A DNA stretch of 64,000 bases from a virus. Below the pieces are notes generated by a model, which ran no database searches, was not told the origin of the DNA, and saw only the letters and a program-made list of their open reading frames with translations. Where the stretch lies: positions 6,324 through 70,323 of the IMG/VR virus record IMGVR_UViG_3300036939_000034; one strand, 5' to 3'. The position numbers and the translations under genes were made by a program. Below are positions 2,985-55,068 of this stretch, piece by piece; positions within the stretch are counted from its first letter, which is position 1, and each line of letters begins with the position of its first letter.

Positions 2985-3302
2985 ATGTCAACCCCCCCAG
3001 CCGCAAAGCTGGGGGTTTATTACGTCAACTTTCTTGAGATCCAAAAGCATCGCTCAATGACCTGCACCCACAACTGGCAACCCCTCTACACCAAACCAAC
3101 TGCGCGAAGTTTTCTGGAAATCTGGGATTCCCTCAACTTGAGCAGTTGGCAGCAGTGCGATGCCTGCCAGCAACTTGGACGCATCCAAGCGAGCGGTAAG
3201 GTGAGGCTTGAGCCAGCGAAGTCGCGAGATCGACGGCTGGCTGATGTCCAAAAATGGAATGACACCATTCGGGTGTACCGCCAAAACCTAGAACGCCTGT
3301 GA
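2985..3302 (+). CDS. Hypothetical protein, possibly Zn-binding (probable start ATG 3057)
   Basis: CTH...CDAC motif. Confidence 0.45.
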   Translation: MSTPPAAKLGVYYVNFLEIQKHRSMTCTHNWQPLYTKPTARSFLEIWDSLNLSSWQQCDACQQLGRIQASGKVRLEPAKSRDRRLADVQKWNDTIRVYRQNLERL

Positions 3303-6235: not shown

Positions 6236-6258
6236 CTAATCTTCACGGGAAGGCTGAT

Positions 6259-7095
6259 CTACAGAGGGAGAGGAAACTCCTGAATCCTTAAGTCCTCCGG
6301 AAACTCATCAATGTCCCCACCCTTGCTATTGGAAAGGTGGAAGTGCGGGAAATGGTCAGGATAGTCTGATTCTGAAAAGACGGGCTTACTACCCAGTTGC
6401 TTCACGAACACGGCCGGTCCATTCGCTGCACTTCGGCACTGACGGACGAGCGATCGCATCCAGTCCACCTGACAAGGTCGCGCCCCCTTGCCCGACTCAC
6501 CACCAATAATTGCCCAGCTCAAATGGTTGACGTAATCACCCAAGCAGACTTCTTCTAGTAGTGGCTCACAGGAGACAAATAACACAAAGGTAGGTATTTG
6601 AGTCAGGTACGGCAAGCGCTCATTCACTACTCGCTGGTTCTCCACTGTGCAGCCCATCCAGAAGTTACTAGGCAGCAAATCCCGCCCACGAGCATTTAGC
6701 CAGTCAGCGCAGGCTTGCAGCATAATATCGGGGCGCTTGGTGAGGAACTGGAATATCAACTTCGAGTTGAACGCCGCATCAAACATCTCGAAGTGCCAAT
6801 CACGAGGCACCCAATCACCAAAAATATCGGTCATGCTGCCGACAAATACCCTCTTCGTCTCCCTAACCCTCGTCCACCGAGCTAACTCTTTGCGGTCTAA
6901 TTCCAGCTTCGGAGCTTCCCCAGCGTATTTGAGGTGTGAGGCAAAGCTGAAGTAACTATTGTTGTTGATTGCTTCGGCGTAACAGTTGGCACAGCCTTCA
7001 GAAATCTTCTGGCACCAGTGCCCGCCTAGTGTGCCATCTTCCTTAAGGACGCGGACGGGGTTAGAAGTAGCCTTGATCCATTGAATTTTACTCAA
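6259..7095 (-). CDS. Phage Gp37/Gp68 (DUF5131) radical-SAM-like protein
   Basis: MSKIQW, CQKISEGCANCYAE, FVGSMTDIF, FLTKRP, SCEPLL, WAIIGGESG, FVKQLG. Confidence 0.9.
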   Translation of the reverse strand: MSKIQWIKATSNPVRVLKEDGTLGGHWCQKISEGCANCYAEAINNNSYFSFASHLKYAGEAPKLELDRKELARWTRVRETKRVFVGSMTDIFGDWVPRDWHFEMFDAAFNSKLIFQFLTKRPDIMLQACADWLNARGRDLLPSNFWMGCTVENQRVVNERLPYLTQIPTFVLFVSCEPLLEEVCLGDYVNHLSWAIIGGESGKGARPCQVDWMRSLVRQCRSAANGPAVFVKQLGSKPVFSESDYPDHFPHFHLSNSKGGDIDEFPEDLRIQEFPLPL

Positions 7096-15087: not shown

Positions 15088-16284
15088 ATGGAAACCCAAA
15101 ACCATGCTGATTTCGGTGCAATCATTCCAGCCTTTCTCGACGAGTATCCTCTAGACCCTTTTGAATTCAGACTTTTTGCAAGAATTCAACGCCGATCTGG
15201 AAGACGGGAGTGCTTTGAATCACTCCCCAACATGGCTAAAGGTTGTCACATGAGCTTAGGCAAAGCTCGACTAGCTTTTCGAGTTTTAGCTGAGTGCAAA
15301 ATCATCTCAGTACAAAATAGAGCAACAGAGGGAAAGACATACCTCTGCACTATCAATCCGATTGAGTACTGGGTTCCTCAAGAGCAGGTAGAAGCCATCC
15401 GGAAAAGGTTAGCCCCTACCAAATCTGACAAGGGTACTGAATCCGATACCCCTATCAAATCTGATACCCCTACCCCTATCAAATCTGATACCCCTACCCC
15501 TATCAAATCTGATACCACCCCCCTATCAGATTTAGTACCACCCCCCCTATCGGATCTGATACCCGAAGGAATACCTCTTAATGAATCAATCAATGAATCC
15601 CAAGTAATCTTAATCCCCCCTACCCCCCGAGGGGGAAACGAGAGCGAATCAACTTCGGTTGTTGAGATTCCTGGAGAAGAGGTGAACTTACCTCCCTCGA
15701 CTGACTCATACCTTTACTCAGAAGACAGAGAAGAGGGTGGGCAGCAATCAAAAATTGAAGATCAAGAAATTACGGTTCAATCTTCTACTTCGCTGTCAGA
15801 ACAGCCAACTTTGTCAGAAACGATTAAGCCTGATCGTGAGGGCGAATATTCCGCCTCGCCGCTGCGTGATAACAGTGTTTTTGTAGGCAGCGGCAACTTA
15901 GCTCCAGATAGCAAACAAAGACCTTTTGACCAACGTAAGGGGACATGGAAAAGCATTGGGTCTGACCCCTGGATGCAGAGCGGCTCAAATGTTTTGCCTG
16001 AATTCAAGCAGTGGTTATATCAGCGACATCAACGCAAAAACAAAGGTTTGACGTTATCCGATGCCGCGTCAGAGATTCGCAACGATTACGCTAGGGCGTC
16101 CGATCTCTGGTCGGAATACCAAGACGATTTAGCCCGACACCAGCAAGCACATCTGAGGTTGGTTCAGCCAATAGAACACAAAGCACTAGTTAGCAACGAA
16201 TTACCAGTCTCCGCAGAAGTCAGAGAGCAGTTCAGGCAGAAATTACTTAACAAGAAGGTGAATTCATGTATGCCAAAAATTTAG
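15088..16284 (+). CDS. Replication initiator (lambda O-like organisation)
   Basis: N-terminal wHTH-like region, internal iterons, directly upstream of the helicase. Confidence 0.75.
   Translation: METQNHADFGAIIPAFLDEYPLDPFEFRLFARIQRRSGRRECFESLPNMAKGCHMSLGKARLAFRVLAECKIISVQNRATEGKTYLCTINPIEYWVPQEQVEAIRKRLAPTKSDKGTESDTPIKSDTPTPIKSDTPTPIKSDTTPLSDLVPPPLSDLIPEGIPLNESINESQVILIPPTPRGGNESESTSVVEIPGEEVNLPPSTDSYLYSEDREEGGQQSKIEDQEITVQSSTSLSEQPTLSETIKPDREGEYSASPLRDNSVFVGSGNLAPDSKQRPFDQRKGTWKSIGSDPWMQSGSNVLPEFKQWLYQRHQRKNKGLTLSDAASEIRNDYARASDLWSEYQDDLARHQQAHLRLVQPIEHKALVSNELPVSAEVREQFRQKLLNKKVNSCMPKI
15413..15563 (+). repeat. Iterons / probable replication origin
   Basis: About six copies of CCCTATCAAATCTGATACC-like units at about 24-bp spacing inside the initiator gene. 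Confidence 0.75.
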
Positions 16285-17627: not shown

Positions 17628-18209
17628 ATGACACAGCACTCTGTAAACAAGTTCAAACTTCTCGAAGAAATTCGTCACTTGAACCAAAAAGAACAACAAC
17701 TAGCAGGACAAAAAGCGGCAATTCACCACGATCAAATATGCTTCCTATTCAGTCTGGGGCAGCGCATTCAGCAGCTCTATGAGGCTTGTGAGTATGGCGA
17801 GTACAAGGCGATGCTCACTCGAATTTCATTTAGCTGGGCAGACGCCGATCGCAAGCGCAAGGTTTGGTTGACGTTTGGTAAATACCGTAACGAGCCGTGG
17901 ATTTCCAATTTTGGGAAATCAGCGCTTCAGGAAATGGCTTACGGCAAAAAACCCGATTTAGAGATTATTGAACAGGCGATCGCCTTAGCAAAAAGCGGCG
18001 TAAAAGTTGGCGTTTCCTGGGTCTGGGCTGTGCGGGATAAAAAGCGTTCCTGTGTGCCGTTGGACGCCAATGCGGTCAGGAATTCAGCCATCAGGAAAAC
18101 TCGCTTGTCCGCGAAAGTGCGTCAGCTGGTTCATGCCGTTGTTGATGAAATTGGCGAGGAGGAGTTGTTAAAGGTGCTCCAGAGCGTTCGAGAGGCACGG
18201 AGGGCATGA
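17628..18209 (+). CDS. Hypothetical protein
   Basis: Coupled ORF. Confidence 0.55.
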   Translation: MTQHSVNKFKLLEEIRHLNQKEQQLAGQKAAIHHDQICFLFSLGQRIQQLYEACEYGEYKAMLTRISFSWADADRKRKVWLTFGKYRNEPWISNFGKSALQEMAYGKKPDLEIIEQAIALAKSGVKVGVSWVWAVRDKKRSCVPLDANAVRNSAIRKTRLSAKVRQLVHAVVDEIGEEELLKVLQSVREARRA

Positions 18210-21200
18210 GCAGTCTACTCACTTTGTCCAATCCTCCTGAGGCAACAGACTCCCCCAAGTCCGGCTTATTCGTCAGCTTCGGCTACACCTACAACGAGCT
18301 AGAGAACTGTGGAAAGTGTGTGACTCGTCGCGACTGGAAAGACTCACACGCCCAGAAATTTATCAAAGCCTATCAAAAGGGCTTGCTGATTCGAGCGTTT
18401 GACAAAGACCCCCGCTATAGAGGCGTCCAAACCGGGTGGTTGAAGCTAACAGTTGCACCTTACCAAGAAGCACTTGCAGATATGCCAGAGGGCGATGTTG
18501 CTCTTGAAGGTTTTCCGGAATTGAGCAAGGAAAAATTCCTCTCTCAATTCTTCAAAAAAACTGACTTGCTAAAACCCGTTTGGGTTGTGCGGTTCAACTA
18601 TTCCCCTTTTCCCCTTAAAGACCAATGCCAACAAGTGGACATCTCTTCGCCGGTGGTGGCGGCGACACCGAAGGAGCAGGCAACGCTGGATACGACTCCT
18701 TGTGGGCTATCCAGTACGAGCCAGGAGAAAAGCAGCAATGGGCTGCCGCCATCTACCGCAAGCGATTCCCTAACACACGACTCATTGAGCGGGACATCAC
18801 CCAGCTCACGGACGAGTTTATTCAGTCTCTCCCCGTACCAGACATTCTCATCTGGGGAAGTCCTTGCCCGGATTTCTCCCAGGCTGGAAAACGTGCCGGT
18901 ATTGAAGGCGATCGCGGACGCCTGTTTTTTGAAGGAATCCGATTTCTGCAACTTCTCCAGCCTAAATTTTTCCTATTTGAAAACGTCCAAGGACTGTTCA
19001 GCTCAGGGGAAGGAGAAGACTTCAAGCAAGTCATCCAAGCGTTTGCAGAAGTGGGGTATATGGGGACTTGGCAGCTCAGAAACGGGAGTCGCCATGTCCC
19101 ACAAAACAGACCCAGAGTCTTCTGTCTGGGCGTTCACCGGCGATGTGCGAATTACGTCCCCGAAGCCTTACAAAAAGACGCTGGCTGAATGCTTGGGAGG
19201 TAGTGCACCAATAAACTCAGTTAGCGGTGACCCTGTAGATCAGGCTTACACCCTGCGCCAGTCTTCTTTTAAGCAGGGTACTGGAAACGCCAAGCACCCA
19301 AACACTTTTGTTCGGCTGCCTGCTGCTATTAAGGCTTGCGCCAATGAAGTTGAGTTTACGGATGAAGCCCCTAGCTTGATAGCGGGCAGGTGGCTTGATT
19401 CAACCAATAGCAACCACGCTAGAGGCGGGAAGGGCTTTGCCATCCTTGACACACTACAGTCAGCAAGAGAGGGCAAGCCTCGCATCTATGAATCAGATGC
19501 GTGCTCGCTACTTTCCCCCTCTACGGGTGGCTCAAAGCTAAAGGTTGTCCATCGGGCACCAGGCGGCGATCGCCTTTACACGGAGAACGCACCCACACTA
19601 CGTTCTCTCGCCAACACCAACGGTCACCAAGCTGGCAGCGGCGCAATGAAGGTGCGAGAAATCGACGGGGGAGCTTACATTGAACGCCCCATGACAGCCC
19701 GTGAGTATGAGAACGTGATGGGCTGGGAACCCAATTCCACAGCTATTGGACTAACGGCTGACGGCAGGGAAATCCAGATTAGCGAGACACAGAGAAAGCG
19801 CGTATTGGGAAACGGGATTGTTCCCCAAGAAATCACAGAGATATTGCTCGCCCTTAAGCCATTTATTGAAGATTCCGTATTGAGCGGGCATCAAGAGCAA
19901 ATAGATGAAATTGCCCAGATGGTTCGAGATATCGATCCGGACTGCCCCAACGCTCTGCCAACGATTGAAGCTTCGACCCTTCGACAGGCTCAGGGCAACG
20001 CCCCGCTCAGCTTTAAAAGCGACTTTGGGCAAGTCAAAGAAAAAGCGACTGTTGACGCAGTCGCCGTAAGCATAAACACATCAGGAGAATACACGATGGT
20101 TGCTACAGTTTCGGAGCAATTTGATTTAGAACAAACAATTCAGTCTTACAAGGACAAGCTCAAGCAACTTGACGCTCAAGCTACTACGTTTCCCGCGAAG
20201 TGCGATCGCTCTACCGCTCAAGAGAAGCGGGCCAACACATCTGAACGGAATCGCATTTCTCGCCTTTTGGAAGGTCTGGCTGTTTGTCGCAAATTTCCTC
20301 ACAACACAAAAGTGGTTCACGACTTCAACGGTGAGGGTCTAGTTAAAGCCGTGTTCATCGACCATCGTCAAGTGCCTATGCTTTCGGTTGTATTTGATGG
20401 TTCAGGGTTGGAGGATGTCTCCCCCTATGACGTAAAGGTGGTGAATGGTGTTGAGCAGGGTTCAGACGCCGAAGTTCGACAGACTGAACAGGCAATCTCG
20501 ATTGAGGCAGCTATCGAACGGATAGCAGGAGCAGAGCAACAGACTGCCACCAACGACCAATTAGTTGCCGATGGTCAGGAGTCGGTAAAACGCGATCGCC
20601 CATCACCACCAGTTACGGCTTACCTAAACCCCGATGACATCATCATCGACTGTGGAACACAATCGCGAATGTTTGAGGATGCCCTCAAGATTGAGGACTA
20701 TAAGCGAGATATGGACAACGGCGAGTGGGATCTAAACCGCCTACCCCTACCTGTTGTTTTCCATAACCCAGATGACGGACTTCACTACGCTGGCGACTGC
20801 CACCAACGAGTAATAGCCGCACGAAGGTCGCCCGCTATCGACAAGCTACTTTTCGAGGTTCGCATCGGCTCATTGGCAGAGGCAAGGCTTTTCTCTGCAA
20901 AAGCCAACACTCAGCACGGACTAGGGGCAGACAACTCACCTGCTGGGGTGCGTAAGCGGATTGAAATGTTTCTTGACTCGATCGGGCAGCTGTCACCCGA
21001 ACGCTACCTTGAAGAATTTCTATCAGTCCCAGATCTGACTCGAAAGGAGCGAGGAACAGGGAGATTCAGCTCCCGCACCATTGCTCGTTACCTCCGTCTT
21101 CGCCCTGGTCAGGATCGGCTGGTATCAGCCATCATGCACGAGCGGGAATTATCTGCGCGTTTTGCGCAGATGAATCTAAAGGAAGGCGATCGCGTTGAAG

Positions 21201-22297
21201 TAATTACTGGCGCTCCCGACTGGATCAATGTGGGAGAGTTGGGAACCATCATGCAACTGGATAAAAAGTCAGGAGTTTGGGTGAAGTGGGATGAACGTGA
21301 AGGTGCTCCCGTGCCGATTCTTCCCCAATTCGTCCAGCTAACAGATAAACCTAAGCCTGCGCCTGCGCCAAAACCACCAGCTTCTCAAGGAGTAACAGGG
21401 AGTACGCACGTCGCCAAAACCTTCTCACCACCAACGCCAGAAGACGAGGGGGTTCTGCCGAACGAGGAGGAGCGATCGCCTGATCACGGCTCCCCTGCAA
21501 CACAGCCCGAACACCAGTTCACAACTACTACCCCCCAAGAGTACGCATCGGCGGCAGCCACGATAGAGCGAGAGCAGTTGCCTGCTGTGGTGGAAATTTT
21601 GGTGCGCAATATGCCCAAGCAGAGTGTTGAAGTGGTGGAAGCGATCGCCACTTCGTTCAGCGAAGAGCAAAGGCGGCGTGTCGGCGAGATCTTAGGTTAT
21701 GAAGCCAGGATTCAAGAGCTAGAAGGTCGAATAATGGAGCTAATGGAGCTAGAAACGAAGCTACAGAAGCCTGCTACTCGCACCGACGAATGGTACACAC
21801 CCCCTGAGTACGTCGAGATGGCACGGGAGGTGCTGGGTGGTATCGACCTCGATCCGGCTAGTAATGAGCTGGCACAGTCCTGGATTCAAGCTAAGAAATA
21901 TTTCACAAAGGATGACGAGGGACTGGTTGCCAGCGACTGGTATGCGTGGAATGAAGGCCCCATTACTGTCTGGTGTAATCCTCCCTATGGTCGCGATGTT
22001 TTTGAGTGGCTTACTACTGCGATTCGAGGATATCAGGACGGCGATATCAAGTCTGCAATGCTCTTGCTCAATCGCACGGGTGCCACTTGGTACAAGTCAT
22101 GCATTAAAGAGGTGACCGCTATCTGCGAAGTACACAAACGCATCGCTTTTCTTGATGAGAATGGCGATCGCCAATCATCACCTCGCTACTACAACGACTT
22201 CCTCTATCTGGGCGAAGATGTTGAGAAATTCATTGAGGTGTTTTCAGCAATTGGTGATGTTCGAGTGTTGCAGTCTGAGCAGCGTCGTGCTTCTTAG
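18206..22297 (+). CDS. Polyvalent protein: ASCH-like + C5-MTase C-terminal half (TRD, motifs IX-X) + ParB-like + SH3/KOW-like + Dam-type N6-adenine MTase
   Basis: KCVTRRDW/EGF..WVVRF (ASCH); RPMTAREYENVMGW and RVLGNGIVP (IX, X); GDCHQRVIAA (ParB-like); DEWYTP, IDLDPAS, WCNPPYG (N6 MTase). Confidence 0.85.
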   Translation: MSSLLTLSNPPEATDSPKSGLFVSFGYTYNELENCGKCVTRRDWKDSHAQKFIKAYQKGLLIRAFDKDPRYRGVQTGWLKLTVAPYQEALADMPEGDVALEGFPELSKEKFLSQFFKKTDLLKPVWVVRFNYSPFPLKDQCQQVDISSPVVAATPKEQATLDTTPCGLSSTSQEKSSNGLPPSTASDSLTHDSLSGTSPSSRTSLFSLSPYQTFSSGEVLARISPRLENVPVLKAIADACFLKESDFCNFSSLNFSYLKTSKDCSAQGKEKTSSKSSKRLQKWGIWGLGSSETGVAMSHKTDPESSVWAFTGDVRITSPKPYKKTLAECLGGSAPINSVSGDPVDQAYTLRQSSFKQGTGNAKHPNTFVRLPAAIKACANEVEFTDEAPSLIAGRWLDSTNSNHARGGKGFAILDTLQSAREGKPRIYESDACSLLSPSTGGSKLKVVHRAPGGDRLYTENAPTLRSLANTNGHQAGSGAMKVREIDGGAYIERPMTAREYENVMGWEPNSTAIGLTADGREIQISETQRKRVLGNGIVPQEITEILLALKPFIEDSVLSGHQEQIDEIAQMVRDIDPDCPNALPTIEASTLRQAQGNAPLSFKSDFGQVKEKATVDAVAVSINTSGEYTMVATVSEQFDLEQTIQSYKDKLKQLDAQATTFPAKCDRSTAQEKRANTSERNRISRLLEGLAVCRKFPHNTKVVHDFNGEGLVKAVFIDHRQVPMLSVVFDGSGLEDVSPYDVKVVNGVEQGSDAEVRQTEQAISIEAAIERIAGAEQQTATNDQLVADGQESVKRDRPSPPVTAYLNPDDIIIDCGTQSRMFEDALKIEDYKRDMDNGEWDLNRLPLPVVFHNPDDGLHYAGDCHQRVIAARRSPAIDKLLFEVRIGSLAEARLFSAKANTQHGLGADNSPAGVRKRIEMFLDSIGQLSPERYLEEFLSVPDLTRKERGTGRFSSRTIARYLRLRPGQDRLVSAIMHERELSARFAQMNLKEGDRVEVITGAPDWINVGELGTIMQLDKKSGVWVKWDEREGAPVPILPQFVQLTDKPKPAPAPKPPASQGVTGSTHVAKTFSPPTPEDEGVLPNEEERSPDHGSPATQPEHQFTTTTPQEYASAAATIEREQLPAVVEILVRNMPKQSVEVVEAIATSFSEEQRRRVGEILGYEARIQELEGRIMELMELETKLQKPATRTDEWYTPPEYVEMAREVLGGIDLDPASNELAQSWIQAKKYFTKDDEGLVASDWYAWNEGPITVWCNPPYGRDVFEWLTTAIRGYQDGDIKSAMLLLNRTGATWYKSCIKEVTAICEVHKRIAFLDENGDRQSSPRYYNDFLYLGEDVEKFIEVFSAIGDVRVLQSEQRRAS
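18625..19188 (+). CDS. C5-cytosine methyltransferase N-terminal half (motifs I-VIII), nested out of frame in the 18206 ORF
   Basis: HLFAGGGG (I), GSPCPDFSQAG (IV), FENV (VI), PQNRPRVF (VIII). Confidence 0.9.
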   Translation: MPTSGHLFAGGGGDTEGAGNAGYDSLWAIQYEPGEKQQWAAAIYRKRFPNTRLIERDITQLTDEFIQSLPVPDILIWGSPCPDFSQAGKRAGIEGDRGRLFFEGIRFLQLLQPKFFLFENVQGLFSSGEGEDFKQVIQAFAEVGYMGTWQLRNGSRHVPQNRPRVFCLGVHRRCANYVPEALQKDAG

Positions 22298-49598: not shown

Positions 49599-52496
49599 AT
49601 GCAGTTAACCGCAAAACTCGCCCGTGTCCGCATCGCTGATGATGTGTTTGTCAGTGGTGACGGGATACTCCTCCCGAACATCACCGTTTCCCTAGGGGAA
49701 GATCTGCGCTCTTCGACCTGTAGCTTTAGCCTCAATGACCCAGGCTTACTGATTGGGGCAAAGTACCGGGAAATCAGTGTGAAGGAAGGGGGAATTCAAG
49801 TCCCTTCAGAACTGTTAGACGCCCCAAAGCAAGTAGCGGCGACCACTGGGACGGCGACAACGGGCGCAATTCCTTCCGCTCCACCTCCAGGCGGACTAAC
49901 GAACTACGCGGCCGGCTCTCAAGGGGAAATCGTACTGGGAATAGTCAAAGAATGCTTAAAAAACGGCATCAATGACCCCACCAAAATTGCTTTCATGATT
50001 GCCGTAGCCGAGGGGGAAAGTTCGCTCAACCATAACGCCAAGGGAGCGAGGAACGAAGGGGCGGGTAACTACTACGGTCGCTCCCTCGTGCAAATCACCT
50101 TCGACTACAACTACAAAGAAGCTAGTAAGGTTGTTGGCGTAGATTTGATAGCTAACCCGGACAGGGTCCATGAGCCTGCCATCTCTACAGCCCTCTTAAT
50201 CTGGGGTGTGAAGCGTGGGTGGTGTAGTCGTGGTGGGATCGATAAGTATGTGACCGGTCCTAACTCTGACCTCGCCACTGCCTACCGTGCAATTCAAGGG
50301 GGCGTGTGGGGCGAACGATACCAAACCTTTTTTAACAAGTGGTTCAAGCAAGTTCCGGCACTTATCCAGCAAGCAGGGGGGGCTGCTACCCCACCACCAC
50401 CTCCCCCTCCACCGCCAGCCGATCCAATGAGTACTGCAACACCTGCTGCTGCTACCCCACCAACTACCGAAACTCCTCCCCCTGTTGAGGCTTCCAAAAA
50501 AGGCACTGAAATCATCATTGAGATAGCCGTGGGGTATAGTGCGACGTGGAAAGAAGCGATCGCTTTCCATTTCATCCACACCGAAACCAAGACGAGCTGG
50601 GATGCTGACGGTAAACAGACCACAACGTTCGGGGGGAAATCTATTCGCTGGTTGCTTACGAGGGTGCCAGTAACCCAAAGCTTTGAAAATATCAATTTCA
50701 AGCAGTTTACCGAGATGCAGGTTTCGGGCTTCAATCTGAAACTGGACATGGAGGGTAGCGGTCTTACATTCCAGCACTTAAGTCAGGACGGTCAAACTCC
50801 CTTAGATGTACTCTTCCGAGAATCCAAGCGTCTAGGATTTCGGATAGCAGAAGGGATAGGAAAAAAATCAAACACCTTGATCGTGGAGCCGTTTGCGCGG
50901 CCCAACTTTACCAACCTAATCATTGACGAAGAAATTCTAATTAAGCCCGCAATCTTCACCGACAAAGCAAGAGCCTCGTCATCAAGTGCCCCAGCCGCAA
51001 CCGTCTCCGCTCCCGAAACAGGAACAGGGGAAGCCAAGAGTGCGATCGCTCGTGACACTGGCGATATGTCCTCAACCAAGCCAGAATCCAAAGCAGGAAC
51101 AGGACAAAAGCCCGGTAGTGGTGGAGTAACAGGTGCGACTGCTACCCCTGTCGGAGGGACAGTAAAACCGGACGCGGTGAAGATGGCTGTGCCAACTGCA
51201 ACCACCACAACCACTACTCCACCAACTGCAACCACTGCGATTGCTTCTGGTGCTGCCCCTAGTGCGATCGCAACCACTTCAAAAGCTGGAGCCAGTCAGG
51301 AAAAGAATGCGACAACCAAAGTTGAAGGCCCGGTTAAAATCACCAAGCCGGACGGGACGGTAGTTGAAACCACCATCACAACTGAACAGAAACTTGAACC
51401 CACTCAGGTGACGCGGAAAAAGACCACAAAAACGGATGTAACTAAGACTGAGGCTGCGACTCAAACCACAACCAAGGTGGAAGCAGTAACAATAACAGAG
51501 GGGAAAACCAAGACCGTCACCACCATCACAGAACCCGGCAAACAGCCCGCCACCACTACCAAGGAAGAGAAGAAGGTCAGCGCCCAAGACCAGAAACTTT
51601 TAGAGCAAGCCAAAGCATCTGTAGGCTCGTCAACCGTTGCAGCGACGGGAGCGGGTGCCCCTGCCAACGCTGACCCTGTAACCGGGCTGCCTAACCAGAA
51701 AGCTGGGTTTATCGATCTTAAAGACGGCAGAGCTGAAGCTGAAGTTATTGCTGACGAAAGCCGAAGGGTGAAGGGATACGAAGACAGCTACACCCTGGTG
51801 ATGAATTCAGACACATTGCAGTTAGTGCCCGGTCAGATTGTGGCACTATCCAAGCGACTGTTTCCCGACCCCTTCGCGACAGAGAAGCGAATCGCGACTG
51901 TTGACCACAATTTTCAGGCAGGGACAACAACGATTAACACCTACACGCCACAAGCGCAGCTACCAGCAGGTAGTACCAATGCCGTGGCTGCCGCCTCCCC
52001 GTCGTCCCCAACCCAGCTAGCAACGCCGACATCTGCCCCAGGGAAATTTATTTTCCCTGTTCCCAAGGGAGCAACAACAATAGGTGACGGCTACGGCACA
52101 AGAGCGAATCGCGAACCGGGATACAGGCACAATATCTTAGATATAACCGCACCAAGATCCACGCCAGCGGTGGCCATGGCTGACGGGATTGTAACTGATA
52201 TCGCCCCGAACGCTGGGGGAGCAGGCAATTTGATGACGATCACCCACGGGGGTGGGTATGTCGCTACTTATATGCATGGAGTATCAGGGAAGTTTGCGCT
52301 CGTTCCTGTTGGTGCTCAGGTCAAGCAAGGTCAAGACGTTTTCTTGATTAACTCCACAGGTGGAAGCACTGGCGACCACCTGCACCTCAAGTTCACCTTG
52401 AACGGGTCATACTGTCTTTTGTCCAGGGTAGGAATAGACGTACTTAAACTTGGCTTACCACTAGAGCAGTACAACAAGACGTGCGATAAATACTAG
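49599..52496 (+). CDS. Baseplate hub protein with GH19-like lysozyme and M23 peptidase domains
   Basis: YYGRSLVQITFDYNY (GH19-like); HNILDI, YMH, STGGSTGDHLH (M23); Thr/Pro-rich linkers. Confidence 0.8.
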   Translation: MQLTAKLARVRIADDVFVSGDGILLPNITVSLGEDLRSSTCSFSLNDPGLLIGAKYREISVKEGGIQVPSELLDAPKQVAATTGTATTGAIPSAPPPGGLTNYAAGSQGEIVLGIVKECLKNGINDPTKIAFMIAVAEGESSLNHNAKGARNEGAGNYYGRSLVQITFDYNYKEASKVVGVDLIANPDRVHEPAISTALLIWGVKRGWCSRGGIDKYVTGPNSDLATAYRAIQGGVWGERYQTFFNKWFKQVPALIQQAGGAATPPPPPPPPPADPMSTATPAAATPPTTETPPPVEASKKGTEIIIEIAVGYSATWKEAIAFHFIHTETKTSWDADGKQTTTFGGKSIRWLLTRVPVTQSFENINFKQFTEMQVSGFNLKLDMEGSGLTFQHLSQDGQTPLDVLFRESKRLGFRIAEGIGKKSNTLIVEPFARPNFTNLIIDEEILIKPAIFTDKARASSSSAPAATVSAPETGTGEAKSAIARDTGDMSSTKPESKAGTGQKPGSGGVTGATATPVGGTVKPDAVKMAVPTATTTTTTPPTATTAIASGAAPSAIATTSKAGASQEKNATTKVEGPVKITKPDGTVVETTITTEQKLEPTQVTRKKTTKTDVTKTEAATQTTTKVEAVTITEGKTKTVTTITEPGKQPATTTKEEKKVSAQDQKLLEQAKASVGSSTVAATGAGAPANADPVTGLPNQKAGFIDLKDGRAEAEVIADESRRVKGYEDSYTLVMNSDTLQLVPGQIVALSKRLFPDPFATEKRIATVDHNFQAGTTTINTYTPQAQLPAGSTNAVAAASPSSPTQLATPTSAPGKFIFPVPKGATTIGDGYGTRANREPGYRHNILDITAPRSTPAVAMADGIVTDIAPNAGGAGNLMTITHGGGYVATYMHGVSGKFALVPVGAQVKQGQDVFLINSTGGSTGDHLHLKFTLNGSYCLLSRVGIDVLKLGLPLEQYNKTCDKY

Positions 52497-52504
52497 AAAG
52501 AGTG

Positions 52505-52602
52505 CAAAATACCCCTCATCCGAAGACAAGGGGTATAGATGCGATGATTTGCGAAAAGATGCGTAGTGACGTGATGAGAAGAACTGAGGAGAGACGAGGT
52601 GC
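52505..52602 (-). ncRNA. Putative small RNA unit 3: degenerate 5-nt repeats + hairpin
   Basis: 13 pentamers at 52536-52600 (plus strand GNG-NN, only 4 perfect GAG); hairpin 52509-52536; TAAGAT-N6-GCACCTC upstream. Confidence 0.6.
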
Positions 52603-52611
52603 TTCTTTATC

Positions 52612-52724
52612 TTAAACAAGCCGCTCTTGCTTTTTCTTCAAGAACGGCTTGTTCGTTGTGTTGAGGGGAGGTGAGTTGAGATGAGAAGAGTTGAGCGGAG
52701 TCGAGTCGAGTAGAGCGGAGGTGT
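52612..52724 (-). ncRNA. Putative small RNA unit 2: (CTC-NN)n + hairpin
   Basis: 12 perfect GAG units plus one GTG at 52656-52722; hairpin 52615-52653; TAGAAT-N6-ACACCTC upstream. Confidence 0.7.
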
Positions 52725-52739
52725 ATTCACATTCTACTC

Positions 52740-52850
52740 AAAAGCGATCGCACCCATTGAAGAACGCGATCGCCCGTTGAGATGAGAAGAGGAGAGTAGA
52801 GCGGAGCTGAGACGAGTTGAGAAGAGCGGAGCTGAGAAGAGCAGAGATGT
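52740..52850 (-). ncRNA. Putative small RNA unit 1: (CTC-NN)n + hairpin
   Basis: 14 perfect GAG units at 52777-52848; hairpin 52744-52773 plus U-tract; TAGGAT-N6-ACATCTC upstream. Confidence 0.7.
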
Positions 52851-52859
52851 ACACCCATC

Positions 52860-53366
52860 CTACCGAAAACTCTTCCAATCCTCCAAAAGCTTCTGCTTAT
52901 CCAGCATCTGTTCAGGCGACTTAATTACTTTTTGCCTCAGCATCAGGCTTGATTCTGGACTGAAAACAGTCTCTCGCAAATCAATGTAAGCCATCGATAA
53001 TCCATACTCTACCCGCTGCGAATGAGTTAACTTCTTTGGATTAACGCACTCTACCTTACGCCTATAACTTGCCGTGTCACTCCTCATTCTTTTGCTGTGT
53101 ATACTGTTTGCGTGTTTACTAATCTCAGCATTCAAAAGCCGTCTATATCCTTTGTTGTGTTCGCATACCAAAGATACAGAGTATTCAGCCTCGGCTATTT
53201 TTATAGCTGCTTCTAGAAAATAGCGCTGACGCCCCCTAATATCACACGCTGCAACCTCTACCAGTTCTTCATAAGTGATAAACTCCCCTTCCTTCAAGTC
53301 TCGTAACCGTTGCACTAACTGCTGTGTGATTGGCGATCGCTTATCAGTTTTCATTCTTCGTTCCAC
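52860..53366 (-). CDS. Partner protein of the Cas7-like gene, possible winged helix (probable start ATG 53354)
   Basis: ATGA overlap with the upstream gene; GEFITYEEL...NKGYRRL. Confidence 0.65.
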   Translation of the reverse strand: MERRMKTDKRSPITQQLVQRLRDLKEGEFITYEELVEVAACDIRGRQRYFLEAAIKIAEAEYSVSLVCEHNKGYRRLLNAEISKHANSIHSKRMRSDTASYRRKVECVNPKKLTHSQRVEYGLSMAYIDLRETVFSPESSLMLRQKVIKSPEQMLDKQKLLEDWKSFR

Positions 53367-53953
53367 TCCATTTTTACTACCTTAAAACGTCCAAAATAAC
53401 CGTTGTTTCGAGGTCTGAAACGCCCAATTCCAATCAATCGCCCTGCCTGCTCTAAATGCCTGTTCAATACCTCTTCAGTAATGGTGTCGTCATAAACAAT
53501 AAACTCTGCTACCCCTTGCCATTTGTACAGCACTGGGTAACACTTCATTACCCGCTTACCACTCCCCCTCACTCCATCAGCCGGATAGAATCCCCATTCG
53601 CCAATCCAATCATCTTTTAAGATTGGTGTCCCCTCCAAGGACTGGAGAGGCATCGGCTCTATGCAGAGGATGCCAGCTTCAAAGTGCTTCGTCCAAGTCG
53701 CTTTACCCTTCCCCGGTATTTGTTCCCCCAGGAATTTAGCCGCTTCAGACAGGGCGTTCTTCAGTGCCATATTCGGCACAAAACTTTTCCCGTCCAAGTC
53801 AACGTGTATCCGTTCTTTCCAGGTTCTCTCCTCGTAGGCGTCCGGGAGTTCCTTATTGAGCTTCGGTGTGTTGTGAAACTTTGATTGAGAATAAGGCGTT
53901 AGCCCCTCAAGATGAGCGATCGCAATCTTGGGCATAAAATCTGAGCTTTTCAA
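53351..53953 (-). CDS. Stand-alone Cas7/RAMP-like protein (probable start ATG 53935)
   Basis: LEGLTP first strand, FVPNMALKNALSEAA (like IPGSSLKGALR), Gly-rich loop GIGRFRPRNNGYFGRF. Confidence 0.75.
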   Translation of the reverse strand: MKSSDFMPKIAIAHLEGLTPYSQSKFHNTPKLNKELPDAYEERTWKERIHVDLDGKSFVPNMALKNALSEAAKFLGEQIPGKGKATWTKHFEAGILCIEPMPLQSLEGTPILKDDWIGEWGFYPADGVRGSGKRVMKCYPVLYKWQGVAEFIVYDDTITEEVLNRHLEQAGRLIGIGRFRPRNNGYFGRFKVVKMEWNEE

Positions 53954-54052
53954 TCAACATATACACCATACATAATACAGTGGGGCAGTAAGTAAGGCAG
54001 TAATGCAGTAGTTAATAGGATTGCGCTCCCTTCGGGGAATGCGATCGCTCCT

Positions 54053-54250
54053 TCACTTCAGCTTAATCCAGTACTCAACTTTTCTCCCCGACTCCACAGC
54101 CGCAACCCGACTCAGTACAGCGATCAACTCTTCAATTCTGGTTGACTGATTTTGAGGAGTCGTAACAATCACTTCTGCCCCTGGGACAGACAGGAAAGCA
54201 TCAACATGGACGGTTTCGCCAATACGGTAGAGTCCTGGTTTTTCGGTCAT
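54053..54250 (-). CDS. Small hypothetical protein
   Basis: Short ORF followed by a hairpin. Confidence 0.4.
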   Translation of the reverse strand: MTEKPGLYRIGETVHVDAFLSVPGAEVIVTTPQNQSTRIEELIAVLSRVAAVESGRKVEYWIKLK

Positions 54251-54279
54251 GATCAGGTAAGTTTTTATTTATTCTACTT

Positions 54280-55068
54280 ATGGCTTCCTTCACCACAGCA
54301 CTGGCGGAATTAGTCCGCCTCCTTCCCCAAATCAGAGAACTCTGCACCCGGCAATCACAGATCCAGGAAGCGATCGTCACTCGTAACAATGATCCAACAG
54401 GAATGCGGCGAATTAGGGTCACAAGGGAAGCTCAAGGAGGTCAATCAGAGTCCGACTGGTTCCCATGTGGGCGCTCAACCAGTCACAGTGATGAACCGAT
54501 TCCCCCAGTAGGTACACATTGCTTGGTTGCCCTGGTCAACGGCGACCCGCACAAGCCCTTCTTTTTAAGGACACTGAGTAACCAAACCAACCCCCCGGAC
54601 ACCACTCAGCTAAAGCCCACCCAGGACAACACTACTCGCATTCCAGGGGATGACAAGGAGATTATTGAGGGCGATCGCTTCACAGGCATCCAAGGAGCGC
54701 TCACTCAAGAGATTGGCAAAGACGTGACCATTACGTGCAAGGGTGAAACGTACCGCCTAGACGCTGAATTTGGGGAACTGCTGTTTACTGCCCTCGCCAC
54801 GGGCGTCGGCACGGTAACGGTACAGGCAGCAGATAAAATCCGATTTGAGCAAGGGGGAGCCTATGCCCAGATGGAGAATGGTCAATGGACATTTGGAAAC
54901 GCTGATGGCATGAGGTGGACGTTTGGGGGAGGAGCCTGGAACTGGGATGCCAACGGTGCTGCGATCAGAATTGCGAACGCTTCTGATGTGACGATTTCCG
55001 GCAAAAGCGTGGCAACAGTTGGGGCGGTTGATAATAGGGGAGATACCCTAGTTAACCGAGGATGGTAA
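54280..55068 (+). CDS. Baseplate assembly protein V / spike
   Basis: NDPTGMRRIRV, SDW, PPVG..LV..VNGDPHKP (OB fold). Confidence 0.85.
   Translation: MASFTTALAELVRLLPQIRELCTRQSQIQEAIVTRNNDPTGMRRIRVTREAQGGQSESDWFPCGRSTSHSDEPIPPVGTHCLVALVNGDPHKPFFLRTLSNQTNPPDTTQLKPTQDNTTRIPGDDKEIIEGDRFTGIQGALTQEIGKDVTITCKGETYRLDAEFGELLFTALATGVGTVTVQAADKIRFEQGGAYAQMENGQWTFGNADGMRWTFGGGAWNWDANGAAIRIANASDVTISGKSVATVGAVDNRGDTLVNRGW

What the first reader, a model, noticed from the sequence alone, without database searches (positions are those of the whole stretch)
52505..53953. Cas7-like protein with three pentamer-coded small RNAs: candidate non-CRISPR RNA-guided system
Seen: a minus-strand cassette interrupting the baseplate operon. 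It encodes a ~195-aa protein with RAMP/Cas7 hallmarks (first strand LEGLTP, VPNMALKNAL helix, terminal Gly-rich loop GIGRFRPRNNGYFGRF) and a coupled ~164-aa gene. These are followed by three ~120-bp units, each holding 13-14 repeats of a constant trimer (CTC on the gene strand) alternating with a variable dinucleotide. I saw no CRISPR repeats or cas1/cas3/cas5/cas6 genes. Known: Cas7 polymerises along guide RNA with a fixed nucleotide period. Inference: each subunit grips one constant trimer and displays the NN, so the dinucleotides form a discontinuous guide. I recall reports of viral Cas7-like systems with trimer/NN guides but cannot verify the relationship here; this CUC-based variant may be undescribed.
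Basis: partly seen in the sequence, partly recalled or inferred. Interest (0 to 1): 0.97.

Follow-up and report, generated by a model that had tools for sequence, protein, structure and literature searches.

The report
Cyanophage VIPR system with CUC guides
A cyanobacterial phage carries a small Cas7-like protein, a DNA-binding partner and three guide-RNA genes written in five-base steps: a member of the VIPR systems described in 2026, unusual in that the fixed letters of its guides are CUC where the published ones have GGY.

Summary
Window 52505-53953 (minus strand) carries a 194-aa RAMP/Cas7-fold gene, a translationally coupled 164-aa gene and three pentamer arrays (14, 12 and 13 units). The first two are strict CTC+NN; the third is worn to CNC+NN. 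Each has its own -10-like box and a 3' hairpin.

This is a VIPR system (Vipr + vap + vrRNAs; bioRxiv 10.64898/2026.04.26.720920), so the kind is known. A family profile hits the solved SUSP1 Vipr (E 1e-8; hhalign 97%). The partner gene is homologous to SUSP1 vap1 (hhalign 93%). The gene order is the same.

What differs is the constant trimer: CUC, not GGY. This is a lineage trait. CTC arrays flank vipr in 5 IMG/VR relatives and 2 cyanobacterial genomes (a third is degenerate), all rich in the cyanobacterial HIP1 motif, and they form a clade inside GGC users. Other relatives use GAC, GUC, GUU, CGC or CAC.

I found no CUC handle in the text of the VIPR papers; figures and supplements were not visible. 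This scan has reported VIPR loci with GAC, GUC and CGC handles on other DNA. Expression is untested and no convincing target was found.

Verdict: a new variant of a known kind, of moderate interest.

The parts
53351..53935 (-). vipr: 194-aa RAMP/Cas7-fold protein (an alternative TTG start lies at 53953)
   Evidence: ORF. At least 1792 homologues, none named. Profile hit to PDB 36pp 'SUSP1 Vipr protein', E 1e-8. hhalign to SUSP1 Vipr: prob 97.3, E 2.3e-11, 143 columns. AF2 pLDDT 90.7. Foldseek hits to Cas7/Csm3.
52860..53354 (-). vap1-like accessory gene: 164 aa, winged helix followed by a helical hairpin. Its start overlaps the vipr stop (ATGA).
   Evidence: hhalign of the family alignment A2 to SUSP1 vap1: prob 93.4, E 2.4e-7, 104 columns. 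216 cluster representatives at E<=1e-3. tblastn finds a vap-like gene in 22 of 80 IMG/VR loci. AF2 pLDDT 95. Only weak winged-helix fold matches.
52857..52862 (-). -10-like box TAGGAT, 10 nt before the first unit of vrRNA1; it overlaps the vap stop codon
   Evidence: Read. The spacing is the same at all 3 arrays here and at 3 of 3 arrays in L089.
52777..52846 (-). vrRNA1 guide tract: 14 x CUC+NN
52738..52776 (-). vrRNA1 3' tail: a 14-bp hairpin built from two HIP1 palindromes (GCGATCGC), then UUUU
   Evidence: Fold is -25.9 kcal/mol (z -5.3) on the minus strand against -19.0 on the plus strand.
52731..52736 (-). -10-like box TAGAAT, 10 nt before the first unit of vrRNA2
52651..52720 (-). vrRNA2 guide tract: 12 x CUC+NN, then the conserved end CACAA CGAAC
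   Evidence: The 3' end motif C[TG]CAAC[GA]CAACG is shared by C-type arrays in other loci.
52615..52653 (-). vrRNA2 3' tail hairpin (15 bp)
   Evidence: Fold is -22.7 kcal/mol (z -6.6) on the minus strand against -17.3 on the plus strand.
52609..52614 (-). -10-like box TAAGAT, 10 nt before the first unit of vrRNA3
   Evidence: The box is conserved in the orthologous L001 array.
52534..52598 (-). vrRNA3 guide tract: 13 units, degenerate (CNC+NN; 5 strict CUC)
   Evidence: It is orthologous to the L001 array at 6253-6297: 80% identity, differing by a 10-nt (two-unit) indel.
52505..52536 (-). vrRNA3 3' tail: a 12-bp hairpin plus UUUU, which terminates the cassette
   Evidence: Fold is -21.3 kcal/mol (z -6.0) on the minus strand against -15.5 on the plus strand.

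Best explanation
This is a type II-like VIPR system (Viral Interference Programmable Repeat) carried by a temperate, myovirus-like cyanophage. Three short vrRNAs are each transcribed from the minus strand, from their own -10 box to their own hairpin tail.

By homology with the SUSP1 system, Vipr protomers polymerise along each RNA, one per pentamer. They bury the constant trimer, here CUC rather than GGY, and expose the NN dinucleotides. The exposed NN read double-stranded DNA discontinuously; in SUSP1 one target base is skipped after each pair. The complex sits on the target and silences it. The winged-helix vap1-like protein assists. The expected targets are competing phages, prophages or satellites of the same cyanobacterial host.

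Shown here: the fold and homology of both proteins, the locus architecture, the periodicity, the strand signals, and the clade-wide use of CUC.
Inferred: transcription, RNP assembly on CUC, the skip rule, the silencing outcome and the targets.
For: Protein and partner:
- The Vipr profile hits the solved SUSP1 Vipr at E 1e-8. hhalign gives prob 97.3. The model has a RAMP fold with a thumb and a Gly-rich loop.
- The partner is homologous to SUSP1 vap1, prob 93.4.
- Gene order (vipr, vap, three arrays on the gene strand) is the same as the SUSP1 locus, L082 27500-29061.

Arrays go with the gene:
- By the automatic call, 69 of the 80 IMG/VR loci (70 of 81 with the window) carry period-5 arrays within 2.5 kb of vipr. 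Two of these calls proved spurious on inspection, leaving 68 of 80. Of 22 genome loci, 20 carry arrays.
- The CTC handle recurs in all 5 closest IMG/VR relatives (L001, L002, L003, L005, L006). It also recurs in 2 of 3 cyanobacterial genomes that carry vipr (Allocoleopsis L083, Microcoleus L089); the third, Iningainema L084, has a degenerate xTC array.
- The CTC loci group together on the Vipr tree: SH-aLRT 82 for 7 rows, 94 with L045; 2 changes of label against a shuffled mean of 5.8.

Strand:
- 14 of 15 strict CTC arrays, in 8 loci, lie on the vipr strand.
- A TAnnnT box lies 5-21 nt upstream on the CTC strand in 12 of 15 arrays, against 3 of 15 in the mirrored reading.
- The 3' flank folds better as CTC-strand RNA in 13 of 15 arrays. 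All three window tails do so, by 5.4 to 6.9 kcal/mol.

Guide-like variability:
- The 169 units use all 16 dinucleotides at NN while the trimer stays fixed.
- The closest relative, L001 (87% Vipr identity), has different NN in its first arrays.
- The orthologous third array differs by a whole two-unit indel.

Mechanism in the reference system: paper 1 Results and paper 2 section 5.
Against: - There is no expression data. No RNA run holds this DNA, so the transcripts and their ends are inferred.
- No convincing target was found. The only exact 1-nt-skip match is in a 34% GC contig with no HIP1 sites, and the skipped bases fall on codon position 2 rather than on the wobble position.
- The SUSP1 residues that read GGY are not conserved here. 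D177 aligns to R172, W178 to F173 and R138 to Y133. In SUSP1, the GGY substitutions tested (AGY, GAY, GGA, AAY) abolished silencing (fig. S12 legend). How CUC is held is therefore unknown.
- The third array is degenerate and may be decaying.
- The generic terminator scan did not call the three hairpins, because their U-runs are only 3-4 long.
Confidence: 0.82

Rival explanations
1. The arrays are read from the plus strand as GAG+NN RNAs. These would either be vrRNAs with a purine handle closer to the published G-based forms, or a TRAP-like protein-binding RNA with spaced GAG triplets.
For: GAG contains G, as do the published handles (GGY, NNNGG, YNNNG, NNNNG). One array in L001 (3781-3835) does read GAG+NN on the vipr strand. 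That spaced GAG triplets bind TRAP is recalled knowledge, not a result of any call.
Against: - In 14 of 15 arrays CTC is on the vipr strand, the same arrangement as GGC in GGC-type relatives and as in SUSP1.
- -10-like boxes favour the CTC strand: 12 of 15 against 3 of 15.
- The hairpins lie 3' of the tract only on the CTC strand, as published for vrRNA tails, and they fold better there in 13 of 15 arrays.
- The reversed L001 array has its own hairpin on the CTC-reading side.
Confidence: 0.05
2. The pentamers act as DNA rather than RNA: phased binding sites (iteron- or centromere-like) for the winged-helix 164-aa protein.
For: The partner protein has a winged-helix-like N-terminal domain. A 5-bp period is half a helical turn.
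Against: Two of every five positions are free to vary and use all 16 dinucleotides, which is unlike an operator. The same kind of array follows vipr even where no vap-like gene was detected: vap was found in 22 of 80 loci by tblastn, arrays in 68 of 80. In the homologous SUSP1 system the arrays are transcribed and the RNAs co-purify with Vipr.
Confidence: 0.03
3. The locus is a decaying or idle VIPR. The proteins are intact, but the guides no longer match anything and the system does no work in this phage.
For: Array 3 keeps only 5 of 13 strict handles. No target turned up in any search: the phage's own contig, relatives' loci, IMG/VR, JGI metagenomes, the GTDB genome collection or 401 cyanobacterial genomes.
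Against: - Arrays 1 and 2 have 26 of 26 perfect handles, with intact boxes and tails.
- Both ORFs are intact, and the Vipr sequence keeps the family's 38 invariant columns.
- The database scans were blind to imperfect matches: they required an exact match over 10 units or 11 units. Published natural targets were accepted at 80% NN match or better.
Confidence: 0.08

Closest known systems
Type II VIPR system of Escherichia phage SUSP1 (vipr YP_009199429.1, vap1, four vrRNAs; bioRxiv 10.64898/2026.04.26.720920, 10.64898/2026.04.26.720927 and 10.64898/2026.10.15.759431)
   Same: - Homologous Vipr (hhalign prob 97.3) and homologous vap1 (prob 93.4).
- The same order: vipr, vap, then three arrays on the gene strand.
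- Pentamer units, 12-14 per RNA, which falls within the published 9-16.
- A structured 3' tail.
- Phage-borne, with no CRISPR array found and no cas gene among the ORFs scanned.
   Different: - The constant trimer is CUC, not GGY (GGU in SUSP1).
- The SUSP1 residues that contact G1 and G2 (D177, W178, R138) align to R172, F173 and Y133.
- The tail is a plain hairpin with a U-run, not the SUSP1 pseudoknot tail described in paper 1.
- There is no upstream vrRNA.
- The host is a cyanobacterium and the site is between tail genes.
- No target is known.
GGC-type Vipr loci of the same protein family (for example L013, L050, L077 in IMG/VR; 55-60% identical Vipr)
   Same: The same 185-200-aa protein with an invariant G-loop, GIGRFRPRNNG. 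Arrays lie on the gene strand just before and after vipr. The 3' end consists of two conserved units followed by a hairpin: GGCGAGGCGAGG there, CKCAACKCAACG here.
   Different: The handle is GGC there and CUC here. Residue 133 is F in 34 of 35 distinct GGC-type proteins and Y in 6 of 6 distinct CTC-type proteins. Residue 167 is F in 32 of 35 GGC-type proteins and L in 6 of 6 CTC-type proteins.
Cas7 backbone subunits of class 1 CRISPR effectors (type VII Cas7, Csm3, Cmr4, Cas7-11)
   Same: RRM core, thumb hairpin and glycine-rich loop. Foldseek E 4e-7 to 1e-4, TM about 0.5-0.58. One protomer binds per fixed RNA step.
   Different: Sequence identity is 10-16%. The RNA step is 5 nt, not 6. No CRISPR array was found and no cas gene appeared among the ORFs scanned. 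The guide is gapped rather than contiguous.

Membership tests
VIPR system (type II-like) | A Vipr protein: a stand-alone minimal RAMP homologous to known Viprs | tested here: met
   Profile against PDB 36pp 'SUSP1 Vipr protein', E 1e-8. hhalign prob 97.3, E 2.3e-11 over 143 columns.
VIPR system (type II-like) | RAMP fold with an RRM core, a thumb and a glycine-rich loop | tested here: met
   AF2 pLDDT 90.7. The order of strands and helices fits an RRM. There is a hairpin at 111-136 with a loop, and a low-confidence Gly-rich loop at 169-183. Top Foldseek hits are Cas7, Csm3 and Cmr4.
VIPR system (type II-like) | An adjacent vap accessory gene; in type II, a DNA-binding vap1 | tested here: met
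   A 164-aa gene is translationally coupled to vipr. hhalign to SUSP1 vap1: prob 93.4, E 2.4e-7. The N-terminus is winged-helix-like.
VIPR system (type II-like) | Flanking non-coding arrays of 9-16 pentamer units, with three constant and two hypervariable positions, followed by a structured 3' tail | tested here: met
   The arrays have 14, 12 and 13 units. None is expected by chance. Hairpin tails have z -5.3 to -6.6. NN uses all 16 dinucleotides across the clade.
VIPR system (type II-like) | Constant motif GGY, or one of the alternatives named in print (NNNGG, YNNNG, NNNNG) | tested here: not met
   The handle is CUC in 26 of 26 units of arrays 1 and 2, with no G at any constant position. The alternatives named are from paper 1 Methods. 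Fig. S17 and the data files were not visible.
VIPR system (type II-like) | vrRNAs are expressed and co-purify with Vipr | not testable with these tools
   No RNA run holds this DNA. Only promoter-like and terminator-like signals are available.
VIPR system (type II-like) | NN positions match natural DNA targets under the 1-nt skip rule | tested here: inconclusive
   There was one exact 22-of-22 match (24 of 28 overall), in an unrelated-looking 34% GC phage contig, with the skipped bases on codon position 2. There was nothing in the phage's own contig, in relatives' loci, in metagenomes, in the genome collection or in 401 cyanobacterial genomes. The large scans required exact matches.
VIPR system (type II-like) | Encoded by a virus or provirus, without a CRISPR array or cas genes | tested here: met
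   The contig encodes terminase, portal, capsid, sheath, baseplate and integrase. TRF finds no CRISPR-like array. No Rfam hit. No Cas family appeared among the 35 ORFs scanned; the remaining 19 ORFs of at least 140 aa were not scanned.
CRISPR-Cas class 1 effector (Cas7) | A CRISPR repeat-spacer array and further cas genes (cas5, cas6, a large subunit) | tested here: not met
   No such array and none of these genes among the scanned ORFs. The resemblance is in fold only.

The most novel reading that the evidence does not exclude
The constant trimer of VIPR guides is an evolvable 'dialect', not a fixed GGY. Within one well-conserved Vipr family (about 50-60% identity) lineages have switched to GAC, GUC, GUU, CGC, CAC and, in cyanophages, the all-pyrimidine CUC. 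Matching changes occur at RNA-contact positions:
- F133Y, at the position of the SUSP1 thumb residue R138.
- F167L.
- Loss of R172, at the position of SUSP1 D177, in some GAC and CUC lineages.
On this reading the CUC Vipr and its RNAs form a pair that is orthogonal to GGY systems. That would insulate the phage from decoy or 'solo' vrRNAs of rivals, which paper 3 shows can hijack a Vipr. It would also give engineers mutually blind VIPR channels.
Probability: 0.3. Interest if true: 0.6.

Novelty: new variant of a known kind. Interest (0 to 1): 0.4.

Why it matters
VIPR is a months-old class of RNA-guided DNA binders, proposed as the root of the CRISPR RAMPs. Its published mechanism rests on protein pockets that read two syn-guanines and a pyrimidine.

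A natural, clade-wide CUC handle, held by a Vipr that is otherwise 55-60% identical to GGC users, means that the protein-RNA recognition has been re-specified in nature. That offers a compact comparison set for working out how the handle is read. It also suggests that orthogonal Vipr/vrRNA pairs could be used for multiplexed programmable repression.

The locus further extends VIPR to temperate phages of filamentous soil-crust cyanobacteria, where phage-versus-phage conflict is almost unstudied. If the authors' unseen figures or data already show C-type handles, this locus is simply one more member.

Tried and rejected
Family libraries:
- Pfam gave only sub-threshold noise for all three ORFs.
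- NCBIfam gave nothing for Vipr and only noise for vap.
- PHROGs placed Vipr in phrog_4652, function unknown.
- An Rfam E-value scan of 52000-54600 gave one sub-threshold C/D-box match on the plus strand (20.9 bits against 42), rejected as chance.

RNA evidence: no RNA holder is listed for this DNA. The only run is a DNA run that may be the source sample.

Target searches under the published 1-nt skip rule:
- Own contig, skips of 0 to 3: the best non-self score was 21 of 28, against a shuffled-unit maximum of 20. Only the arrays themselves scored higher.
- Guides of 5 relatives against this contig, and the window's guides against relatives' loci: nothing exceeded the shuffled controls.
- vrRNA1, units 1-11, exact match: 1 hit in IMG/VR (L081), judged probably chance for three reasons. 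The contig has 34% GC and no HIP1 sites, against 49.5% GC and 1.5 HIP1 sites per kb here. The skipped bases fall on codon position 2. Units 12-14 match at only 2 of 6 positions. There were 0 hits in JGI metagenomes, 0 hits with up to 3 mismatches in three vipr-bearing cyanobacterial genomes, and 0 hits with up to 2 mismatches in 401 cyanobacterial genomes.
- vrRNA2: 0 hits in IMG/VR, in the GTDB genome collection and in metagenomes.
- vrRNA3 was not searched in any collection.

Other dead ends:
- The first scan of genome contigs with the single protein found nothing. The alignment query found 22 loci.
- tblastn against named phages found only distant hits (LittleE, Medea1) and not SUSP1.
- The generic promoter and terminator scan called none of the boxes or hairpins described here.
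- Fold searches for vap gave no match better than E 0.025 or Z 7.9.
- The 65-aa ORF upstream of vipr (54053-54250, minus strand) has no counterpart in any held locus, so it is not counted as part of the system.
- Residue 133 = Y is not a sufficient explanation of C-type handles. The C-type loci L059, L076, L089, L094, L098, L100 and the xTC loci L014 and L084 all keep F.

Literature: paper reading closed, when I asked for the supplements of PMC13142463. Fig. S17, tables S2-S3 and data S4, which may list this lineage or C-type handles, were therefore not seen.
Full report
**1. What is there**

On the minus strand, window 53935->53351 encodes a 194-aa protein. An in-frame TTG at 53953 would add six residues, but homologues start at the ATG. 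Its stop overlaps, as ATGA, the start of a 164-aa gene at 53354->52860. Three non-coding units follow.

- Array 1 (52846->52777) is 14 perfect CTC+NN pentamers.
- Array 2 (52720->52661) is 12 perfect pentamers followed by two degenerate units.
- Array 3 (52598->52534) has 13 units, of which only 5 keep CTC. C is kept at position 1 in 11 of 13 units and at position 3 in 11 of 13.

TRF reports period 5. The pattern CTCNN x4 + CTC, with up to one mismatch, occurs 20 times in the window, always at 52576-52846 on the minus strand. It did not occur in any of 100 dinucleotide-preserving shuffles. A period-5 scan of the whole 70,323-bp contig finds only these three arrays and one 33-nt chance-level stretch.

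Each array has the same frame.
- A -10-like box (TAGGAT, TAGAAT, TAAGAT) ends exactly 10 nt before the first unit.
- A hairpin of 12-15 bp follows the tract, with a short U-run. z is -5.3 to -6.6, and each hairpin is 5.4-6.9 kcal/mol more stable as minus-strand RNA than as plus-strand RNA.

**2. Surroundings**

The contig is a virus record with 49.5% GC and 107 copies of the cyanobacterial HIP1 palindrome GCGATCGC, or 1.5 per kb. It encodes an integrase, a Rha-like regulator, a DnaB-like helicase, terminase, portal, protease, major capsid, tail sheath and baseplate proteins. I read it as a temperate, contractile-tailed cyanophage.

The cassette lies between a 965-aa lysin/M23 tail protein and a baseplate assembly protein, both on the plus strand. 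No CRISPR-like array was found and no Rfam family reaches its gathering score. No Cas family appeared among the 35 ORFs scanned against PHROGs. Those are 32 of the 51 ORFs of at least 140 aa plus 3 shorter ones.

**3. The proteins**

The 194-aa protein has no Pfam or NCBIfam family and falls in a PHROG of unknown function. It belongs to a large unnamed family: at least 1792 clusters at E<=1e-3, many 55-62% identical.

- An AlphaFold model from 28 sequences has pLDDT 90.7.
- Its best Foldseek matches are Cas7 of type VII, Csm3, Cmr4 and Cas7-11 (E 4e-7 to 1e-4).
- A family profile hits one solved structure by sequence, 36pp 'SUSP1 Vipr protein' (E 1e-8).
- hhalign against the SUSP1 gene product gives probability 97.3 over 143 columns.

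The 164-aa protein has 216 cluster representatives at E<=1e-3. It is modelled at pLDDT 95 as an N-terminal winged helix followed by long helices; the fold matches are only weak. It is homologous to SUSP1 vap1, with hhalign probability 93.4 over 104 columns. tblastn finds a vap-like gene beside vipr in 22 of 80 IMG/VR loci.

**4. What is known**

Three 2026 preprints describe VIPR systems.
- From paper 1 (10.64898/2026.04.26.720920) I read the outline, the whole Results, Methods sections 18 and 20, and passages found by term search.
- From paper 2 (10.64898/2026.04.26.720927) I read the outline and section 5.
- From paper 3 (10.64898/2026.10.15.759431) I read passages only.

A VIPR system is a vipr gene, a vap gene and vrRNAs. 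Each vrRNA has 9-16 YNNGG repeats and a structured 3' tail. Vipr protomers coat the RNA one per repeat and sequester each GGY. The NN bases pair with double-stranded DNA, skipping one target base per unit. The outcome is transcriptional silencing of rival phages, prophages or satellites.

The SUSP1 locus has the same order as the window: vipr, vap1, then three arrays on the gene strand (L082 27500-29061). The window locus is therefore a VIPR system of the type II kind.

**5. What differs**

The published handle is GGY. The Methods name three alternatives: NNNGG, YNNNG and NNNNG. Here it is CUC, with no G at any constant position.

This is a property of a lineage, not of one locus.
- Of 80 IMG/VR loci holding homologues, 69 were called as having period-5 arrays within 2.5 kb of vipr. 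The dominant handles called were GGC 48, CGC 7, GAC 5, CTC 5, GTC 2, GTT 1 and TCA 1 (which also counts the window as a sixth CTC row).
- On inspection, 2 of the 7 CGC calls (L024, L062) were spurious and 5 were real.
- The five CTC loci (L001, L002, L003, L005, L006) are the window's closest relatives. On the Vipr tree they group with it: SH-aLRT 82 for 7 rows including L014, and 94 when L045 is added. The CTC label needs 2 changes, against a shuffled mean of 5.8.
- All of these loci are HIP1-rich, with 7-16 sites per locus of about 8.5 kb.

As an independent test I scanned one genome per species. Of 22 loci found, three are cyanobacterial. Allocoleopsis (L083) and Microcoleus (L089) carry CTC arrays. 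Iningainema (L084) carries a degenerate xTC array. The non-cyanobacterial loci carry GGC (3), GAC (6), CGC (3), CAC (2), GTC (1), GTT (1) and ATT (1, an archaeon); two have no array.

Position 3 of the handle is nearly always C, as in GGY. Positions 1 and 2 are what vary.

**6. Which strand**

No RNA data exist for this DNA, so the strand is inferred from 15 strict CTC arrays in 8 loci.
- 14 of the 15 lie on the vipr strand.
- 12 of 15 have a TAnnnT box 5-21 nt upstream on the CTC strand, against 3 of 15 in the mirrored reading.
- In 13 of 15 the 3' flank folds better as CTC-strand RNA.

The 10-nt spacing between box and first unit is exact at all three window arrays and at all three arrays of L089. 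C-type arrays in several loci also share a 3' end, C[TG]CAAC[GA]CAACG, just before the hairpin. This parallels the GGCGAGGCGAGG end of GGC-type arrays.

**7. Guide-like behaviour**

The 169 units of those 15 arrays use all 16 dinucleotides at NN. L001, whose Vipr is 87% identical, carries different NN in its first arrays. The window's array 3 is orthologous to an L001 array: 80% identity, with the same box and tail. The two differ by a 10-nt indel, which is exactly two units.

**8. Protein changes that go with the handle (exploratory)**

I mapped the SUSP1 contacts from paper 2 through the alignments.
- D177 and W178, in the G-loop, contact G1 and G2. They align to R172 and F173.
- R138, in the thumb, contacts G2. 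It aligns to residue 133.

Residue 133 is Y in 6 of 6 distinct CTC proteins and F in 34 of 35 distinct GGC proteins. Y also occurs in the CGC users L007, L045, L047, L086 and L088, in the CTC user L083, and in L060, where no array was found. It occurs in no locus with a G-type handle. But the C-type loci L059, L076, L089, L094, L098 and L100, and the xTC loci L014 and L084, keep F. Y133 is therefore specific to C-type handles but not required for them.

Residue 167 is L in all CTC proteins and F in 32 of 35 GGC proteins. R172 is kept in every GGC row. It is replaced in L067, L071, L095, L102, L099, L097 and L101 (GAC users) and in L003, L083 and L089 (CTC users). These are correlations among related sequences, not proof of a recognition code.

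**9. Targets**

Applying the 1-nt skip rule gave nothing convincing.
- There is no self-match beyond chance, and no cross-match between relatives' guides and this contig.
- There is one exact match of vrRNA1 units 1-11 in IMG/VR (L081). That contig has 34% GC and no HIP1 site, the skipped bases fall on codon position 2, and the last three units do not match. I treat it as probably chance.
- All other scans returned nothing. The large scans accept only exact matches, so this absence is weak evidence.

**10. Novelty**

The class is published. The window adds a cyanophage member with a CUC handle.

I found no 'CUC' in paper 1 or paper 3. No paper in the library combines 'vrRNA' with CUC, CTCNN, CGCNN, CKC or TGH, and I found no second description under another name.

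Figures, tables and data files were not visible, and paper reading closed. Earlier notes of this scan report VIPR loci with GAC, GUC and CGC handles on other DNA. One note (e1-5920169) says that C-based repeats are already in print, which I could not verify.

I therefore class this as a new variant of a known kind. It falls to 'new member' if the unseen supplements already show C-type handles.

Noticed in passing
window 52505-53953, compared with L001 (IMGVR_UViG_3300041964_000087) and L105/L006 (IMGVR_UViG_3300037511_000373): In L001 the VIPR cassette sits at the same site as in the window, between the orthologous lysin (65% identity) and the baseplate gene. In the L006/L105 contig it lies just upstream of the orthologous baseplate gene; I did not check for a lysin there. 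In both relatives the cassette points the same way as the tail genes, whereas in the window it is inverted. L001 also has extra arrays in reverse orientation just after the lysin gene. The module therefore appears to be autonomous and invertible.
   Followed up: partly
window 52742-52775; also L003, L083 and L002 tails: The stem of the vrRNA1 tail is made of two copies of the cyanobacterial HIP1 palindrome GCGATCGC. Several relatives' tails also use HIP1 pairs as their stems. The host-type genome signature seems to have been co-opted as the hairpin.
   Followed up: no
window 15447-15564: A 24-nt unit (TACCCCTATCAAATCTGATACCCC) is repeated 5 times inside or beside the 398-aa ORF 15088-16284, just upstream of the DnaB-like helicase gene. 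It looks like replication-origin iterons.
   Followed up: no
window 53954-54052 and 54053-54250 (minus strand): The vipr upstream region holds about 2.5 copies of an 8-nt repeat (TTACTGCC; TRF 53991-54010) and a 65-aa ORF with no counterpart in any related locus. They may be a local regulator or operator for the cassette, or just filler.
   Followed up: partly
L098 (Luteolibacter MAG), L100 (Methylococcaceae MAG), L103 (Nanoarchaeia MAG), L064 and L093: Other handles flank vipr homologues: CAC+NN (arrays of up to 36 units), ATT+NN in an archaeal MAG, and GTT+NN. In the one-genome-per-species scan only 3 of 22 loci use GGC.
   Followed up: partly
window 18206-22297 (+): A 1363-aa ORF has a C-terminal DNA methyltransferase domain (phrog_111) and an unknown N-terminal part. 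It is a large fusion protein in the replication module.
   Followed up: no
L089:1380-1410, 1715-1745, 2995-3025: In the Microcoleus locus each vrRNA is preceded by a nearly identical promoter block, TATGGTGTAAG[CA]TAGA[GA]TT[GT]CA. This suggests duplication of whole vrRNA transcription units.
   Followed up: no
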